Origin: an uncultured Thermoanaerobaculia bacterium
GTDB lineage: Bacteria > Acidobacteriota > Thermoanaerobaculia > Gp7-AA8
Length of the DNA: 64,000 nt
Direction: 5' to 3'
Assembly: GCA_964558905.1 (NCBI GenBank)
Contig: CAZLGP010000232.1
Coordinates: 34,824 to 98,823 of the forward strand
Shown here: piece after piece, positions 41,849 through 61,507 of the stretch
How positions within the stretch are numbered: the first letter of the stretch is position 1
Layout of the letters: each line of letters starts with the position of its first letter
Position numbers and translations under genes: made by a program
Notes under the pieces: model-generated
What the model was told of the DNA's origin: nothing
The model's input: only the letters and a program-made list of their open reading frames with translations
Databases searched by the model: none

Positions 41849-42307
41849 ATGCGACAGCTCATCGGATTTCTCGCCCTGACGACGATGATGTGCGCCAGTG
41901 CACCCACGACCGCGCAGACGACGGCAAAACCGGCGCGCGTGGATCGCACGGAAGTGCCGTTCCGCATCGCGACCGCCGAGGTGCAGCGTTTCGAGCGCGC
42001 CTTGCCGTCGCGCAAAGGGGAGTACCGCGAGGCACTCGTGCTGCGCATCGAGGCCGCGGTGGCCGATTACGAAGCGCTGCAGCCCGCGAAGGAGGCCTTT
42101 CTCTACGTAGGCCGCCACGAGCTCCGGCCGATCGATTTCCAGTGGGGGAAAGAACGCGTGATCGTCACGTTCCACGATCCGGAGTGGCGCGAGCTCCGCG
42201 GCGGTGAGCCGATGGTGCTGACGACCGAGCACGGCGAGCCGTTGCGGAATCCGGAGAAGTACCGTCAGGCGCAGCGATTCGACCGCGGGCTGATCGGTAG
42301 CCGGTAG
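41849..42307 (+). CDS. Hypothetical secreted protein
   Basis: In-frame tail of track ORF 40595..42307 from MRQLIGFLALTTMMCASAPTTAQ (signal). 152 aa. Its stop TAG lies inside the heptamer array. Confidence 0.55.
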   Translation: MRQLIGFLALTTMMCASAPTTAQTTAKPARVDRTEVPFRIATAEVQRFERALPSRKGEYREALVLRIEAAVADYEALQPAKEAFLYVGRHELRPIDFQWGKERVIVTFHDPEWRELRGGEPMVLTTEHGEPLRNPEKYRQAQRFDRGLIGSR

Positions 42308-42541
42308 CCGTTGGCGGTTGGCGGTTGGCGGTAGCCGATTGGCGAGGGTACGCACTGGCGATACCGCCCCTCGGCAACGGCTACTGGCTGGCTACTGGCA
42401 AGTGGCTACTGGCTGGCAACCGGCAACTGGCAACTAGCAACTGGCAACTAGCAACTAGCAACTAGCAACTAGCAACTAGCAACCGGCTACTGGCTACTGG
42501 CTACCGCCAACCGCCAACCGCCAACCGTCCACCGCCCACCC
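42297..42541. repeat. Heptamer inverted array H7 with graded unit variants
   Basis: GGTAGCC GGTAGCC GTTGGCG x3 ... spacer ... GCTACTG, GCAACCG, GCAACTG, (GCAACTA)x5, GCTACTG x2, (CCGCCAA)x3. Fills the whole gap between two convergent stops. Confidence 0.9.
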
Positions 42542-55603: not shown

Positions 55604-56767
55604 ATGGCCATCCCGCTGAAGTACAACATCGGAAATCTCATGAGCCGCAAGGGCTCGTCGGCAATGACGGTCCTCGGCATCGGCGTGGTCATCGCGGTGA
55701 TGGTGGCCATGATGGCGCTCTACAACGGCGTGCAGCAGGCCCTCGTCTCCTCGGGGTCGAAGGAGAACATGATCATCCTGCGCGAGGGTGCGCAGGCCGA
55801 GTCGACGAGCCTGGTGTCGCGCGACAAATACCGCATCCTCCGCGACCTGCCCGGCATCGCGAAGGCAGCGGACGGCCAGCCGCTGGTCTCGCCCGAGCTC
55901 GTGATCATCTTCAAGCTCCCCCGCCGCGACAATCCCACCGGTTCGAACGTGAACGTCCGCGGAGTCACGCCGAATGCGCTCGAGCTCCGGCCGTTCATGA
56001 AGCTCGTCGAGGGGCGCATGTTCCGCTCGGGAGTGAACGAGGTGATCGTCTCGCAGCGCATGCGCGAGCGCTTCGTCGACCTCGACATCGGCGACACGTT
56101 CCGGTTCGGGACGCAGACCTGGTCGGTGGTGGGCGTCTTCGACGCGAAGGGCACGAGCTTCGACTCCGAGATCTGGGCCGACGTCGAGACCCTCGGCCTG
56201 GCCCAGAAGCGTCCCGATTACTCCGCGGTGCTGACCCGGCCGGAAAGCGCGAGCGCGTTCAAGACCATCGCCGACGCCATCCAGTCCGACCCGCGCCTCA
56301 AGCTGCAGTCGAAGACGGAGTACACGTACTACGACGAGCAGACCACCGGGCTGCTCGGGATCCGCATCCTCGTGACCATCGTCGCCTTCTTCATGGTCCT
56401 CGGCGCCACGCTGGGGGCGATGAACACGATGTTCTCGGCCGTCGCCTCGAGGAAGCGCGAGCTGGCCACCATGCGCGCCCTCGGCTTCAAGCGCCGCGAC
56501 GTCCTGCTATCCGTGGTCGTGGAGGCGATCGTCCTCAGCGGCCTGGCCGGCATCGCCGGCGTGCTCATGGCCCTCCCGGTCAACGGCATCGCCACCGGAA
56601 CGGCGAACTTCATCACGTTCTCCGAGGTGGCCTTCAACTTCACCATCTCCACGGAAGTGGCCGTCTTCGCGGTCGTCCTGGCGATCGTGGCCGGCGTGAT
56701 CGGAGGGCTCCTGCCCGCGATCAGCGCGGCCAGGCTGCCGATCACGCAGGCGTTGCGGGAGATTTGA
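55604..56767 (+). CDS. ABC transporter permease, FtsX/MacB family (second)
   Basis: MAIPLKYNIGNLMSRKGSSAMTVLGI.. and ATMRALGFKRRDVLLSVVVEA. 387 aa. Confidence 0.85.
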   Translation: MAIPLKYNIGNLMSRKGSSAMTVLGIGVVIAVMVAMMALYNGVQQALVSSGSKENMIILREGAQAESTSLVSRDKYRILRDLPGIAKAADGQPLVSPELVIIFKLPRRDNPTGSNVNVRGVTPNALELRPFMKLVEGRMFRSGVNEVIVSQRMRERFVDLDIGDTFRFGTQTWSVVGVFDAKGTSFDSEIWADVETLGLAQKRPDYSAVLTRPESASAFKTIADAIQSDPRLKLQSKTEYTYYDEQTTGLLGIRILVTIVAFFMVLGATLGAMNTMFSAVASRKRELATMRALGFKRRDVLLSVVVEAIVLSGLAGIAGVLMALPVNGIATGTANFITFSEVAFNFTISTEVAVFAVVLAIVAGVIGGLLPAISAARLPITQALREI

Positions 56768-56768
56768 T

Positions 56769-56922
56769 TAGGACGGATGGACCGATGGGACGAATGGGAC
56801 CCATGGGACCCATGGGACGAATGGGTAGACCGTTCCACCCATTCGAATAGGATCTATGAGACGAATGGGGAGACCGTTCCACCCATTCGTCCCATGGGTC
56901 CCATGCGTCCCATAGGTCCCAT
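56769..56922. repeat. 9-mer inverted array F with duplicated hairpin centre
   Basis: Six forward units, then GAATGGGTAGACCGTTCCACCCATTCG and GAATGGGGAGACCGTTCCACCCATTCG (two copies of the centre), then four reverse units. Lies between two convergent stops. Confidence 0.9.
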
Positions 56923-56935
56923 CCCCCTCCCCCCT

Positions 56936-57709
56936 TCAGTGCTCGCAGCCCGCTCCGCACCCTCCGCCCGCGAGCGCGAACGCCGGGGTGTTCCCCGCCT
57001 GCTCCTCCATCGCGATCGCGCGGGGGAAGTAGACGTTGTTCTCGATGTGCACGTGCTCGTGCGTGCGCGCTTCGAATTCCGCGAGGCGGCGGTACAGCTC
57101 GCGATAGCTGAAGCAGGCGTCCTGCGGCACCAGGTAGCCGTCCGTGACGCTGCGCAGGCGCGCCAGCAGCTCGCCGACGCGATCGTGCTCGAGCATCATC
57201 ATCCGCACCGGGTTCTTCACCGTGCCGAAGAACGGCGTCGGCGCGGGGGTGCCGGACTCGCGCGCTTCCTCGAGCTGCTCCACGTACGGGAAGAGCACCT
57301 GCTCCTCCTTCAGCATGTGCGGCAGCATGTCGTTCGACAGATCGTGGACCGTCGCCAGAACGACGGCCAGCTCGTCATGGCGGCCACCGTGCACGCCGTA
57401 CACCTTCTCCGCGAGCGGCCGGAGCGTCTCCAGCTCCTCGCGCGTGTAGCGGTGATACGCCTCGCAGATGTGCGCGGCGATGCCCGCGAGCGACTCCTTC
57501 GCCCAGTCTCGGCTCACGTTGTCCGGAACCACGGCAGCCATCTCCAGCGCACGGATGAACTCGTCGACGCTCTTCCCCGCCGCCGCGCACGCGTCCGGCA
57601 GCGGCGTCATCCCGCCGCAGCAGTAATCGATCTTCCAGGCCTCGAAGATCCGGATCGAGACCGGGACATCGGCGGCAAGCTCGCCAACAGTACGTTCGTG
57701 CATGTTCAT
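56936..57709 (-). CDS. ytfE: Iron-sulfur cluster repair di-iron protein (RIC/YtfE/ScdA family)
   Basis: ScdA_N string WKIDYCCGG. Hemerythrin-like HxxxE/H motifs (HMLKEEQVLFP, MMLEHD, HEHVHIENNVYFP). Unusual Cys/Gly tail GGGCGAGCEH. Confidence 0.85.
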   Translation of the reverse strand: MNMHERTVGELAADVPVSIRIFEAWKIDYCCGGMTPLPDACAAAGKSVDEFIRALEMAAVVPDNVSRDWAKESLAGIAAHICEAYHRYTREELETLRPLAEKVYGVHGGRHDELAVVLATVHDLSNDMLPHMLKEEQVLFPYVEQLEEARESGTPAPTPFFGTVKNPVRMMMLEHDRVGELLARLRSVTDGYLVPQDACFSYRELYRRLAEFEARTHEHVHIENNVYFPRAIAMEEQAGNTPAFALAGGGCGAGCEH

Positions 57710-57782
57710 GTGTGTTTCCTCCGTAGGTCGTGATTGTCGGAGGTCGCGCGGCCCGCGGCTATGACGGAAGTCATGGGGGGAG

Positions 57783-58195
57783 GCGGTTGGCGGTTGGCGG
57801 TGGCCGGTTTCCCGTGGCCGGTTGCCCGTTGCCCGTGGCCCGTGGCCGGTGGCCAGTTGCCCGTGGCCGGTTGCCCGTGGCCCGTGGCCGGTTGCCCGTT
57901 GCCGGTTGCCGGTTGCCAGTGGCCGGTTGCCAGTTGCCAGTTGCCAGTTGACAGTGCCGGTGGCCAGTTGCCAGGAAGGTGCCGGGCGTGGCGCGCGAAG
58001 GCGCGCCGTACAATCTGGCCCCGGGCTCTGCCCGGGGTCGGGGTTAGATTGGATTGCGCGCCTTCGCGCGCATCACCGCACCGCCTTCGTCGACGCCGGG
58101 CCCACTACTGGCAACCGGCAACTGGCAACTGGCAACCGGCCACTGGCAACTGGCAACTGGCAACCGGCCACTGGCAACTGGCAACTGGCCACTAT
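57783..58195. repeat. Giant heptamer inverted array H8 (about 27 units left, about 13 units right, ~130-nt core)
   Basis: Left arm 57783-57974 has units GGTTGGC, GGTGGCC, GGTTGCC, CGTGGCC, AGTTGCC and others. The core contains GGCGCGCGAAGGCGCGCC. Right arm 58103-58195 has units ACTGGCA, ACCGGCA, ACCGGCC. Confidence 0.9.
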
Positions 58196-58273
58196 CGGCA
58201 AGATCTCTCACTCGATTCCGCTCCGGTGGTGTATGTTGACCCATAAGTCGCTATCCGCTGCAAGGAGTCGCCA

Positions 58274-61200
58274 GTGCTGAATACCTTCCGTCGTGCCCTC
58301 AGGACTGTGGCCGTTTCCTTTTTTCTCGCTGCCGCCCTCACCGCGGCCGCCCAGTCCGACGTCGACATCGAAAAGTTCACGAACGGCCAGAACGCGGACA
58401 CCGCGCCCGGGCCCGGCGTCATCGTCGGCTCCACCGTCAACTGGACCTACGTCGTCACCAACACCGGCAGCCGTCCGCTGACCGACATCGAGGTCACCGA
58501 CGATCAGGGCGTCGTCGTCACCTGTCCCGCGACCACCCTCGGCGCCGGCGAGTCCTTCAACTGCACTGCCAGCGACGTCGCGATCGCCGGCCAGTACGCG
58601 AACATCGGCACCGTCATGGCCACGCTGCCCGACGCCAGCGAGGTCACGGACTCCGACCCCAGCCACTACTTCGGCCAGGCCGCACCGGCGGTCACCATCG
58701 AGAAGCACACCAACGACGAGGACGCGGACACGGCCCCCGGTCCCTCCCTCCCGGTCGGCAGCACCGTCGACTGGACCTACGAGATCACCAACATCGGCAC
58801 CGAGGACCTCATTGAGATCGTCGTGACCGACGATCAGGGAGTCAGTGTCAGCTGCCCCGGGACGGATCTCGCCCCCGGCGCGTCGATGACCTGCACTGCG
58901 TCCGGCATCGTGCAGCCCGGGCAATACATGAATCTCGGCACCGTCGAGGCCTTGCTCCCCGATGAGAGCGGCGTCGTCGCCTCCGACCCCAGCCACTACT
59001 ACGGGCAGACACTCGAGCTCATCAAGCGTACGAACGGCGTCCAGGCACCCGGGCCGCCCGGACCGACGGTCGCCCCCGGCTCCACCGTCAACTGGACCTA
59101 CGAGGTCACCAACCCCGGCCCGGCCACCGTCACCGGGCTCTCGGTCACCGATGACCAGGGCGTCGTCGTCACCTGCTCCCAGGCAACACTGGCGGCCGGG
59201 GAAAGCGTGACCTGCACGGCCAGCGGCCCCGCCATCGCCGGCCAGTACGCCAACGTCGGCACCGCCACCGCCACCCTCCCCCTCGGCGGCGTGATCACCG
59301 TCAACGACGCCAGTCACTATTTCGGCAACCCGATCGCCATCGAGAAATCGACGAACGGTGTCGATGCCGACACGCCGCCCGGAGTCGCGGTGCCTCCCGG
59401 CGATCCCGTGACCTGGACGTACGAGGTCACGAACCTCGGCAGCGATCCGCTCACCGACGTCACCGTCACCGACGACCAGGGCGTCACCGTCACCTGCCCG
59501 CAGACGACGCTCGCCGCCGGCGAGTCGATGACCTGCACGGCGAACGGCATCGCCATCGCCGGCCAATACGCCAACCTCGGCACGGTCGAAGGCACGCTGC
59601 CCTCGACCGCCACGGTCTCCGCATCCGACCCGAGCCACTACTTCGGCCAGGACACGAGCATCGACTTCGGCGACGCGCCGGATCCGACCTACCAGACCCT
59701 CCTCGCCTCGAACGGCGCGCGGCACATCCTCGGCGGCACGCTTTTCCTGGGACAGTGCGTCGACGCCGAGGCCGACGGCCTCCCGAGCGCCGCGGCCGAT
59801 GGCGACGATCTCGACGCCGGTCCCGTTTTCGGCACCTGCGCCGTGGCCGGCGACGACGAAGACGGCGTGACCTTCACCTCCGACCTTCGCACCGGCTTCA
59901 CCGCCGGCGTCGACGTCGTCGCGTCCGAACCGTGCACCCTGTCCGCGTGGATCGACTTCAACGGCGACGGCGACTGGGGAGACCCCGACGACGATCTCTT
60001 CCCCGGCGGGACGGCACTCCTCGCGGGCACGAATTCGCTGACCTTCAATGTCCCCGCAGGCGCGACTCCCGGAGCCTCCTTCGCGCGCTTCCGCTGCACC
60101 ACGGACGGCGCCGTCGGCTTCACCGGCGAGGCGAGCGACGGCGAGGTCGAGGACTACGCCGTCACGATCATCGTGCCCACTCCCGCGGTCGGCGCGACCA
60201 AGGATGACGCTCTGCTCGTCGACGGCGACAGCGACGGACTCGCCGATCCCGGCGACACGCTCCGCTACACCATCGTCATCACCAACAACGGCACCGGCGA
60301 CGCCACCTCCGTCGTCTTCAACGACACCCCCGACCCGAACACCGCCCTCGTCGTCGGCTCCGTCACCACCACCGCCGGCACGGTGACCACCGGCAACACC
60401 GCCGGCGACACCACCGTCGCTGTCGACGCCGGAACGCTCGCCGCGTACGGCGGGTCCGTGACCATCACCTTCGACGTCGTCGTCGACGACCCCCTCGCGG
60501 CCGGCGTGACCGAGGTGTCGAACCAGGGGAGCGTGAGCGGCGCGAACTTCAGCACCGTCGCGACGAACACGGTCGTCACGCCCATCAACCGCACGCCCGA
60601 TGTCACCGCGACGAAAGACGACGCTCTGCTCGTCGACGGCGACAGCGACGGACTCGCCGACCCGGGCGACACGCTCCGCTACACCATCGTCATCACCAAC
60701 AACGGCACCGGCGACGCCACCTCCGTCGTCTTCAGCGACACCCCCGACCCGAACACCGCCCTCGTCGTCGGCTCCGTCACCACCACCGCCGGCACGGTGA
60801 CCACCGGAAACACCGCCGGCGACACCACCGTCGCCGTCGATGCCGGAACGCTCGCCGCGTACGGCGGGTCCGTGACCATCACCTTCGACGTCGTCGTCGA
60901 CGACCCCCTCGCATCCGGCGTGACCGAGGTGTCGAACCAGGGGAGCGTGAGCGGCGCGAACTTCAGCACCGTCGCGACGAACACCGTCGTCACGCCCATC
61001 AACCGCACGCCGATCGTCAGTGCGACGAAGACCGCCGAGCTGCAGAACGACCAGGAGACCCTTCGCTACACCATCATCATCACCAACAGCGGCACCGGCG
61101 ACGCCACCGGCATCATGTTCGACGACACGCCCGATCCGAACACCTCGATCGTCATCGGCTCGGTCACGACGACCCAGGGAACGGTCACCTCCGGCAACAC

Positions 61201-61507
61201 CGCGGGCGACACCACGGTCGCCGTCGACGCCGGCACCATCGGCCCGTACGGAGGCACGGTCACGATCGTCTTCGACGTGGCCATCAACGATCCCCTGCCC
61301 GAGGGCGTTACCGAGATCGTGAATTCCGGAACGGTCAGCGGCTCGAACATCGCCCCGGTCCAGACCGACGATCCCGCGCAACCCGGCTCCTCCGACCCGA
61401 CGATTTTCGCCTGGGCGCTCTTCGCCATCCCAACCCTGAAGACCTGGGCCCTCATGGCCCTCCTCGCGACCCTCGGCACCGTCGCCGCGTTGAAGCTCGC
61501 GCGGTGA
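58274..61507 (+). CDS. Large surface protein: 5 Ig-like repeats + GEVED domain + 3 DUF11-type repeats + IPTL-CTERM sorting signal
   Basis: Signal peptide. Five repeats of ..V.WTY.VTN.G...L..I.VTDDQGV.V.CP...L..GES..CTA... Strings SDGEVEDYAVTI and ATKDDALLVDGDSDGLADPGDTLRYTIVITNNGTGDAT (two copies nearly identical at DNA level). C-terminus AIPTLKTWALMALLATLGTVAALKLAR. Confidence 0.8.
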   Translation: MLNTFRRALRTVAVSFFLAAALTAAAQSDVDIEKFTNGQNADTAPGPGVIVGSTVNWTYVVTNTGSRPLTDIEVTDDQGVVVTCPATTLGAGESFNCTASDVAIAGQYANIGTVMATLPDASEVTDSDPSHYFGQAAPAVTIEKHTNDEDADTAPGPSLPVGSTVDWTYEITNIGTEDLIEIVVTDDQGVSVSCPGTDLAPGASMTCTASGIVQPGQYMNLGTVEALLPDESGVVASDPSHYYGQTLELIKRTNGVQAPGPPGPTVAPGSTVNWTYEVTNPGPATVTGLSVTDDQGVVVTCSQATLAAGESVTCTASGPAIAGQYANVGTATATLPLGGVITVNDASHYFGNPIAIEKSTNGVDADTPPGVAVPPGDPVTWTYEVTNLGSDPLTDVTVTDDQGVTVTCPQTTLAAGESMTCTANGIAIAGQYANLGTVEGTLPSTATVSASDPSHYFGQDTSIDFGDAPDPTYQTLLASNGARHILGGTLFLGQCVDAEADGLPSAAADGDDLDAGPVFGTCAVAGDDEDGVTFTSDLRTGFTAGVDVVASEPCTLSAWIDFNGDGDWGDPDDDLFPGGTALLAGTNSLTFNVPAGATPGASFARFRCTTDGAVGFTGEASDGEVEDYAVTIIVPTPAVGATKDDALLVDGDSDGLADPGDTLRYTIVITNNGTGDATSVVFNDTPDPNTALVVGSVTTTAGTVTTGNTAGDTTVAVDAGTLAAYGGSVTITFDVVVDDPLAAGVTEVSNQGSVSGANFSTVATNTVVTPINRTPDVTATKDDALLVDGDSDGLADPGDTLRYTIVITNNGTGDATSVVFSDTPDPNTALVVGSVTTTAGTVTTGNTAGDTTVAVDAGTLAAYGGSVTITFDVVVDDPLASGVTEVSNQGSVSGANFSTVATNTVVTPINRTPIVSATKTAELQNDQETLRYTIIITNSGTGDATGIMFDDTPDPNTSIVIGSVTTTQGTVTSGNTAGDTTVAVDAGTIGPYGGTVTIVFDVAINDPLPEGVTEIVNSGTVSGSNIAPVQTDDPAQPGSSDPTIFAWALFAIPTLKTWALMALLATLGTVAALKLAR

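What the first reader, a model, noticed from the sequence alone, without database searches (positions are those of the whole stretch)
57783..58195. 0.4-kb heptamer palindrome occupies nearly the whole divergent control region between ric (ytfE) and the IPTL-CTERM surface-protein gene
Seen: the 564-nt divergent intergenic region (57710-58273) contains about 27 heptamer units on the left, a ~130-nt GC-rich core with its own palindrome GGCGCGCGAAGGCGCGCC, and about 13 complementary units on the right. This leaves under 80 nt on either side for promoters and RBSs. The arms are unequal, which indicates ongoing expansion or contraction. Inference: both promoters or 5' UTRs must overlap or read through a structure-prone array. 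Length variation could act as a contingency (phase-variation-like) switch for a surface protein and/or the nitrosative-stress repair gene.
Basis: partly seen in the sequence, partly recalled or inferred. Interest (0 to 1): 0.55.

Follow-up and report, generated by a model that had tools for sequence, protein, structure and literature searches.

The report
Overgrown heptamer hairpin between divergent genes
The 0.4-kb palindrome of 7-base repeats between the ric gene and a surface-protein gene is real, but it is an unusually large copy of a hairpin repeat found about 700 times in this genome, it lies just outside the conserved ric promoter, and nothing found here shows that it works as a genetic switch.

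Summary
The left arm (57784-57972) holds 27 heptamers, the core is 134 nt, and the right arm (58107-58193) holds 12.4 complementary units. They lie in a 564-nt divergent gap between ric (TIGR03652) and a DUF11/IPTL-CTERM surface-protein gene.

This scan has already reported the repeat class on other parts of this genome, and it is in print (Rehm 2015, Xanthomonas). My census finds 703 inverted 6-10-mer array pairs. They occupy 11-12% of convergent, divergent and tandem gaps alike. This copy is the fourth largest overall and the largest in a divergent gap.

The core holds a copy of a separate dispersed two-hairpin module, so the element is composite.

The switch reading is not supported for ric. 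A palindromic box (ATGAY-N4-RTCAT) followed 22 nt later by a -10-like hexamer is conserved upstream of ric in 22 of 22 loci. In this genome it sits intact in the 74-nt flank, 9 nt from the array.

No relative searched has the ric/surface-gene adjacency or an array upstream of ric. Genes downstream of such hairpins are not enriched for secreted proteins.

Arm-specific block duplications show past expansion. Variation between strains could not be tested. The surface-gene promoter is not located.

The parts
56936..57709 (-). ric (ytfE/scdA-type iron-sulfur cluster repair di-iron protein), 257 aa
   Evidence: TIGR03652 at 216.8 bits, cut-off 204.7. Pfam ScdA_N plus Hemerythrin. A GGAGGA Shine-Dalgarno sequence lies before the ATG.
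57733..57738 (-). -10-like hexamer GACAAT of the inferred ric promoter
   Evidence: It starts exactly 22 nt after the box, as in 21 of 22 ric loci of relatives. Assigning it as the -10 is inference.
57761..57774 (.). 14-bp palindromic box ATGAC-N4-GTCAT, inferred binding site of a CRP/FNR-family regulator
   Evidence: ATGAY-N4-RTCAT is present upstream of ric in 22 of 22 loci examined. The genome holds 37 matches against about 5 expected. The regulator's identity was not tested.
57784..57972 (+). Left arm: 27 heptamers of type CNGTKGC. The outer two are CGGTTGG, the genome's commonest unit. Ten are CCGTKGC units (7 CCGTGGC, 3 CCGTTGC) with no partner in the right arm.
57973..58106 (.). 134-nt core (spacer) of the large hairpin
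57990..58038 (+). Copy of a dispersed two-hairpin module of about 47 nt. It has a GCGCGC stem with a GAAG loop, a linker, then a CCCCGGG-type stem.
   Evidence: blastn and mismatch scans of the genome find 38 copies of hairpin 1 and 10-20 copies of the whole module. Stem changes between copies are compensatory.
58039..58071 (-). Inverted partial second copy of the module. It forms the right arm of the inner palindrome, paired with 57991-58023.
   Evidence: (pair I23).
58107..58193 (+). Right arm: 12.4 complementary heptamers, organised as a 28-nt block of four units repeated 2.9 times
58194..58273 (+). 80-nt right flank with the AAGGAG Shine-Dalgarno sequence. The promoter of the surface-protein gene was not located.
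   Evidence: No sigma-70-like site was found. The flank is not conserved with the upstream regions of three orthologues.
58274..61507 (+). Secreted repeat protein of 1077 aa with DUF7507, DUF11 and GEVED domains, a signal peptide and an IPTL-CTERM-type sorting tail

Best explanation
The structure is an overgrown, composite copy of this genome's family of intergenic hairpins whose arms are tandem 7-9-base repeats. Most likely it is tolerated, self-expanding DNA and not a control device. A small hairpin element sat in the spacer DNA between two divergent promoters. Its arms then grew by replication slippage, including multi-unit block duplications that differ between the two arms. A copy of a second dispersed hairpin module lies in its loop. 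It could grow this large because the essential control sequences of ric lie within about 65 nt of the start codon. The array stops 9 nt short of them. The lineage also lacks a detectable SbcCD hairpin nuclease. Shown: the anatomy, family membership, the independent history of the two arms, and the intact conserved ric promoter module outside the array. Inferred: slippage as the growth mechanism, neutrality, and that the box is a CRP/FNR-type activator site centred near -41.5.
For: The genome has 1511 heptamer, 528 octamer and 384 nonamer TRF rows. These include 703 non-redundant inverted pairs with median span 98 nt, arm 33 nt and spacer 24 nt. The focal element spans 410 nt, the fourth largest. 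Pairs occupy 11.4% of convergent, 12.0% of divergent and 12.4% of tandem gaps. The focal element is the largest of 86 in divergent gaps. The same unit family occurs in 4- and 5-contig genomes of the same genus. The two arms have different block structures. The core carries a dispersed module, and C71:11297-11700 of the same genome is a second composite of the same design. The ric box and the -10-like hexamer at 22-nt spacing are conserved in 22 of 22 and 21 of 22 loci. No relative has ric next to the surface gene. None has an array upstream of ric; where relatives have arrays, they lie after the 3' end of ric. Genes with an upstream hairpin are signal-peptide-like in 15.3% of cases against 14.6% for other genes, p = 0.75. 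No SbcD or SbcC match was found in this genome. Rehm et al. 2015 (PMC4692102) found no regulatory role for the analogous Xanthomonas pairs.
Against: Neutrality is a default and has not been demonstrated. The element is an extreme size outlier, and it lies in front of a surface-protein gene whose promoter I could not place in the 80-nt right flank. That transcript might therefore start in or beyond the array. Elsewhere the family sits close to stop codons: the median distance is 6.5 nt from a stop codon against 65 nt to a start codon. That hints at a 3'-end role which cannot apply in a divergent gap. My gene calls are crude (GC3 plus ORF length, 79% coverage), so the gap classes carry error. 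Claims that include loci L013 and L033 rest partly on the unpublished genome G002.
Confidence: 0.65

Rival explanations
1. Contingency (phase-variation-like) switch. Slippage changes the array length and heritably alters expression of the surface protein and/or ric. The model is the repeat tract in the combined divergent hifA/hifB promoter of Haemophilus influenzae.
For: The arms have clearly expanded in blocks. The downstream gene encodes a surface protein. The surface-gene promoter was not found in the 80-nt flank.
Against: The array lies outside the conserved ric box/-10 module and not within it. About 700 similar elements lie in all gap types at equal rates. There is no enrichment in front of secreted-protein genes. 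The locus arrangement is unique to this genome among those searched. The Xanthomonas analogues showed no regulatory role. Classical switches place short tracts between promoter elements or in reading frames. They are not 400-bp palindromes upstream of the promoter.
Confidence: 0.08
2. Structural insulator. The long palindrome extrudes as a cruciform under the negative supercoiling generated between two divergently transcribed genes. It absorbs that supercoiling, or blocks stray transcription, and so uncouples the two promoters.
For: The fold is very stable in either direction (z = -13), with a nested inner palindrome. The element lies exactly between two divergent genes and abuts the ric operator. 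No SbcCD was detected that would cut such structures.
Against: There is no direct evidence. The arms are only 84-90% complementary and unequal, and 17 left-arm units have no partner. That argues against selection for pairing. Relatives run ric from the same promoter module without any such element.
Confidence: 0.15
3. The size and asymmetry are partly an assembly artefact. A real but ordinary hairpin element was mis-extended or mis-joined in a short-read metagenome assembly.
For: The assembly has 322 contigs. The left arm (189 nt) is longer than typical reads. The arrays of this unit family sampled in the 4-, 5- and 20-contig genomes of the same genus have ordinary arms of 26-39 nt.
Against: The left arm is heterogeneous (79% matches, several unit variants in a non-periodic order), which helps unambiguous assembly. 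Twenty or more other elements in this genome have arms over 100 nt. Both unique flanks join cleanly to real genes.
Confidence: 0.1

Closest known systems
Convergent pairs of heptamer simple sequence repeats (GGGAATC) in Xanthomonas campestris and X. axonopodis (Rehm et al. 2015, PMC4692102)
   Same: Both are tandem 7-nt units present as two nearby arrays on opposite strands that can form stem-loops or cruciforms. Both are dispersed, mainly intergenic and present in many copies per genome (70-75 pairs there). No regulatory role has been identified for either.
   Different: There, one G-tract unit with quadruplex potential dominates. Here there are 81 canonical heptamer types plus octamers and nonamers, and the focal unit has no GGG run. 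There, divergent gaps are under-represented. Here they are occupied as often as other gaps.
STRR (short tandemly repeated repetitive) heptamers of heterocystous cyanobacteria, and GGGGA(C/T)T repeats of Nostoc (from my own knowledge for STRR; Rehm 2015 for Nostoc)
   Same: Both are intergenic tandem heptamer arrays in many copies with unknown function.
   Different: Per, the Nostoc arrays are mostly single and only a few are paired as inverted repeats.
Repeat-tract phase variation of the divergent hifA/hifB promoters in Haemophilus influenzae (van Ham et al. 1993, cited in PMC4692102)
   Same: In both, a repeat tract lies in a shared control region between divergent genes, one of which is for a surface structure.
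   Different: There, a short dinucleotide tract lies between the -35 and -10 elements of the overlapping promoters, so unit number sets promoter strength. Here the array lies upstream of, and outside, the conserved ric promoter module. It is a 410-bp palindrome that belongs to a genome-wide family.
REP/BIME-type dispersed extragenic palindromes (comparison for the inner module)
   Same: Both are short GC-rich hairpin modules dispersed in tens of copies, mostly intergenic, sometimes in inverted pairs and in mosaics with other repeats.
   Different: No associated RAYT/TnpA-type gene was sought. There is no sequence similarity to described REPs, and Rfam has no family for it.

Membership tests
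Inverted heptamer SSR pairs (Xanthomonas type; the hairpin-array family of this genome) | Both arms are head-to-tail arrays of a 7-nt unit | tested here: met
   27.1 and 12.4 copies at period 7. Units are listed in register.
Inverted heptamer SSR pairs (Xanthomonas type; the hairpin-array family of this genome) | The two arrays lie close together on opposite strands and are complementary | tested here: met
   The arms are 84-90% complementary over 58-87 nt and 134 nt apart.
Inverted heptamer SSR pairs (Xanthomonas type; the hairpin-array family of this genome) | Dispersed, many copies per genome, mostly intergenic | tested here: met
   703 pairs were found. Of these, 512 lie in called intergenic gaps, 155 overlap crude gene calls and 36 lie at contig edges.
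Inverted heptamer SSR pairs (Xanthomonas type; the hairpin-array family of this genome) | G-tract unit able to form a G-quadruplex (GGG runs) | tested here: not met
   The units CNGTKGC have at most GG. The element shares the architecture of the family but is not the quadruplex-forming subtype.
SSR contingency locus (phase variation) | The tract lies inside a reading frame or between promoter or operator elements, so that unit number changes expression | tested here: not met
   For ric, the box, the 22-nt spacer, the -10-like hexamer and the Shine-Dalgarno sequence all lie outside the array. For the surface gene the result is inconclusive, because its promoter was not located.
SSR contingency locus (phase variation) | Length polymorphism of the tract within populations or between strains | not testable with these tools
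The one metagenome scan gave only a chance match inside an unrelated gene. The nearest genome has only 77% Ric identity.
SSR contingency locus (phase variation) | Repeat tracts preferentially associated with surface or secreted protein genes | tested here: not met
   15.3% against 14.6% signal-peptide-like, Fisher p = 0.75, using a crude heuristic.
Class II CRP/FNR-type promoter (for ric) | 14-bp 5-4-5 palindrome with a TGA...TCA core, centred about 41.5 nt upstream of the transcription start | tested here: met
   The box is present in 22 of 22 ric loci, and a -10-like hexamer starts 22 nt after it in 21 of 22. That places the box centre 29.5 nt before the hexamer. The start site itself and the regulator were not tested.

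The most novel reading that the evidence does not exclude
In a lineage without SbcCD, this giant nested palindrome might be a working device. It would be a supercoil-driven cruciform placed 9 nt from the NO-responsive ric operator. Its slippage-prone, unequal arms would give heritable variants that couple or uncouple expression of a sorted surface protein and a nitrosative-stress repair gene.
Probability: 0.05. Interest if true: 0.6.

Novelty: new member of a known kind. Interest (0 to 1): 0.2.

Why it matters
As a locus it matters little. It is the largest divergent-gap example of a repeat class already described in print and already reported several times by this scan for this genome. Three by-products are useful. 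First, ric in this genus has a sharply conserved promoter module: a 14-bp box followed 22 nt later by a -10-like hexamer. This is a ready-made candidate operator for an NO-responsive regulator in Acidobacteriota. Second, the arrays stop right at functional sequence, which is evidence for promoter-sparing selection. Third, the lineage lacks detectable SbcC and SbcD, which could explain why hundreds of long hairpins are tolerated.

Tried and rejected
- **Strain variants.** That was a chance match inside a lower-GC outer-membrane-receptor-like gene with no array.
- **Orthologous loci.** Twenty-one further ric loci and three surface-protein orthologues show no shared synteny. The history of the locus therefore could not be traced.
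- **Surface-gene promoter.** The consensus scan found nothing. A 3-way alignment of the upstream regions shows no conservation. By eye there is a TTGACC at 58236-58241 with no acceptable -10 at 16-18 nt. I also found no sigma-54-type spacing in the units.
- **Rfam.** Only sub-threshold microRNA-precursor look-alikes matched the inner palindrome. These are meaningless.
- **Regulon of the box.** A genome scan found only six intergenic boxes in front of genes. None was an obvious NO-metabolism gene on inspection of the N-termini, so no regulon could be defined.
- **Fixed polarity.** By my measure the G+T-rich arm comes first in 485 of 703 pairs. That is a bias and not a rule.

Full report
**1. 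Observation**

Tandem Repeats Finder reports a heptamer array of 27.1 copies at 57784-57972 and one of 12.4 copies at 58107-58193. The arms are 84-90% complementary over 58-87 nt. The 134-nt core between them has about 70% GC. It contains the quoted short hairpin at 57990-58007. It also contains a larger inner palindrome with 33-nt arms, 57991-58023 and 58039-58071. The whole 564-nt gap folds 13 standard deviations better than dinucleotide shuffles. The free flanks are 74 nt on the ric side and 80 nt on the other side.

The genes are as stated:
- ric matches TIGR03652 above its cut-off.
- The other gene encodes a 1077-aa protein with DUF7507, DUF11 and GEVED domains.
- That protein has a signal peptide and a C-terminal IPTL motif followed by a hydrophobic helix and a basic tail.

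**2. Fine anatomy**

All left-arm units fit CNGTKGC.
- The two outermost are CGGTTGG, the commonest unit of the genome (327 arrays).
- Ten units are CCGTKGC (7 CCGTGGC, 3 CCGTTGC). Their complement never occurs in the right arm.
- Only the inner 10 or so units use the same variants as the right arm.

The right arm is a four-unit, 28-nt block repeated 2.9 times at 96% identity. That block occurs once in the left arm, at 57918-57945. The two arms have therefore expanded separately and in multi-unit steps. About 17 left-arm units have no partner. It argues against selection for a fully paired stem.

**3. The core is a second repeat**

Part of the core, 57990-58038, is a copy of a dispersed module of about 47 nt. 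The module has a GCGCGC stem with a GAAG loop, a short linker, and a CCCCGGG-type stem. An inverted partial copy follows it.
- The genome holds 38 copies of the first hairpin and 10-20 copies of the whole module.
- Copies differ by compensatory changes in both stems.
- Most copies are not next to heptamer arrays (3 of 10).

The focal element is therefore a composite. C71:11297-11700 of the same genome has the same layered design. Rfam has no family for the module.

**4. Genome-wide context**

The window lies in a 7.38-Mb, 65% GC, 322-contig genome. Earlier notes of this scan call it an uncultured soil Acidobacteriota (Thermoanaerobaculia). I did not check that.

TRF finds 1511 heptamer, 528 octamer and 384 nonamer rows. 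Pairing arrays with complementary units within 400 nt gives 703 non-redundant hairpin elements. Their median span is 98 nt, median arm 33 nt and median spacer 24 nt. The focal element (410 nt) is the fourth largest. Its arm ratio of 2.2 lies at about the 90th percentile.

I used a crude gene caller of my own, based on ORF length and GC3, which gave 4525 genes and 79% coverage. Starts were refined by Shine-Dalgarno sequence. With those calls:
- Elements occupy 11.4% of convergent, 12.0% of divergent and 12.4% of tandem gaps.
- They lie close to stop codons, at a median of 6.5 nt, but stay a median of 65 nt from start codons.
- The focal element is the largest of 86 in divergent gaps and fills 73% of its gap.

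The same unit family occurs in genomes of the same genus assembled into 4 and 5 contigs. There the arms are the ordinary 26-39 nt. The family is therefore real, although the exceptional size of this copy is not independently validated.

**5. The ric promoter**

I examined 22 ric loci: this genome, 15 further genomes of the genus, and more distant relatives and paralogues. One locus, L013, comes from the unpublished genome G002.
- All 22 have an ATGAY-N4-RTCAT palindrome upstream of ric.
- In 21 of 22 a NANNNT hexamer (typically GAGAAT, CAGAAT or GACAAT) begins exactly 22 nt after it. In the last locus it begins at 23 nt.

This is the geometry of a class II CRP/FNR-type promoter, with the site centred about 41.5 nt upstream of the start. 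That follows from established knowledge of the family. The regulator and the start site are inferred and were not tested.

In this genome the box is at 57761-57774 and the hexamer at 57733-57738. Both lie inside the 74-nt flank, and the array begins 9 nt beyond the box. In several relatives the preceding co-directional gene ends only 10-30 nt before the box. About 80 nt is therefore a sufficient control region for ric. The claim that the ric promoter must overlap or read through the array does not hold.

**6. The surface-protein side**

- No sigma-70-like site was found.
- Only three relatives have an orthologue (62-69% identity; one, L033, is from unpublished G002). Their upstream regions are unrelated to each other and to the right flank here, and carry no arrays.
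- The promoter therefore remains unplaced.

**7. Tests of the switch idea**

- **Position:** not met for ric (section 5).
- **Conservation:** ric and the surface gene are adjacent in no relative searched. No relative has an array upstream of ric. Where arrays occur, in L007, L019 and L027, they follow the 3' end of ric.
- **Gene-class bias:** 15.3% of genes with a hairpin element within 200 nt upstream look secreted, against 14.6% of the rest (p = 0.75, crude heuristic).
- **Literature:** the analogous Xanthomonas heptamer pairs showed no regulatory role and a random spread over gene classes (PMC4692102).
- **Length polymorphism:** The one metagenome scan gave only a chance hit.

**8. Tolerance**

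Neither SbcD (TIGR00619) nor SbcC (TIGR00618) has any match in this 96.6%-complete genome, although the same searches match in 13 and 14 of 14 control genomes. SbcD was found in only 2 of 34 other genomes of the genus, and below the cut-off in both. From general knowledge, SbcCD cleaves hairpins and makes long palindromes unstable in E. coli. Its apparent absence is a plausible permissive condition, but this is only a correlation among related genomes.

**9. Verdict**

The element is a new, unusually large and composite member of a known repeat kind. That kind is in print and has already been reported several times by this scan for this very genome (e1-4639254, e1-1182805, e1-2859587, e1-2859588).

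I put 0.65 on tolerated, slippage-grown DNA that spares the promoters. I put 0.15 on a structural insulator role and 0.08 on a contingency switch. About 0.1 goes to the size being partly an assembly artefact.

By my measure the polarity of the family is a bias (G+T-rich arm first in 69% of pairs) and is not fixed.

Noticed in passing
whole genome G000 and 60 relatives: No match to SbcD (TIGR00619) or SbcC (TIGR00618) in this 96.6%-complete genome. SbcD was found in only 2 of 34 other genomes of the genus, below the cut-off in both. The same searches match in 13-14 of 14 control genomes. A hairpin-rich lineage seems to lack the hairpin-cleaving nuclease.
   Followed up: partly
window 57733-57774; loci L002-L025: A conserved ric promoter module: an ATGAY-N4-RTCAT box, then a -10-like hexamer exactly 22 nt later, in 21-22 of 22 ric loci. 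It is a candidate operator of an NO-responsive CRP/FNR-family regulator in this group.
   Followed up: partly
window 56771-56922: A nonamer-armed hairpin (GGACGAATG-type units and their complement) fills the convergent gap between the MacB/FtsX-type permease gene (55604-56767) and the 3' end of ric. ric is therefore bracketed by two repeat hairpins of different families.
   Followed up: no
window 42295-42540: A second overgrown element in the window uses the same CTGGCAA units and has CCGCCAA units at its outer edges. The units form a one-step mutational series: CCGCCAA, CCGGCAA, CTGGCAA, CTAGCAA. This suggests that units evolve in place.
   Followed up: no
G000 contig C71:11297-11700: Another composite with the same layers as the focal element. 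Heptamer arms (GTGACCC/GTGGCCC) enclose two inverted copies of the 47-nt module and a related GCGACCGCGAAGGCGGTCGC hairpin.
   Followed up: no
window 60193-61251: A 414-nt tandem repeat (2.6 copies, 87%) inside the surface-protein gene. It corresponds to repeated DUF11/DUF7507-type domains, so the protein itself is built by recent domain duplication.
   Followed up: no
loci L007 1347-1430, L019 2205-2237, L027 1063-1218: In three relatives, heptamer arrays of unrelated units (GAGTCTC, GTCAGTC, CACTTCA; up to 22 copies) lie just after the 3' end of ric or a ric paralogue. These appear to be independent acquisitions at gene ends.
   Followed up: no
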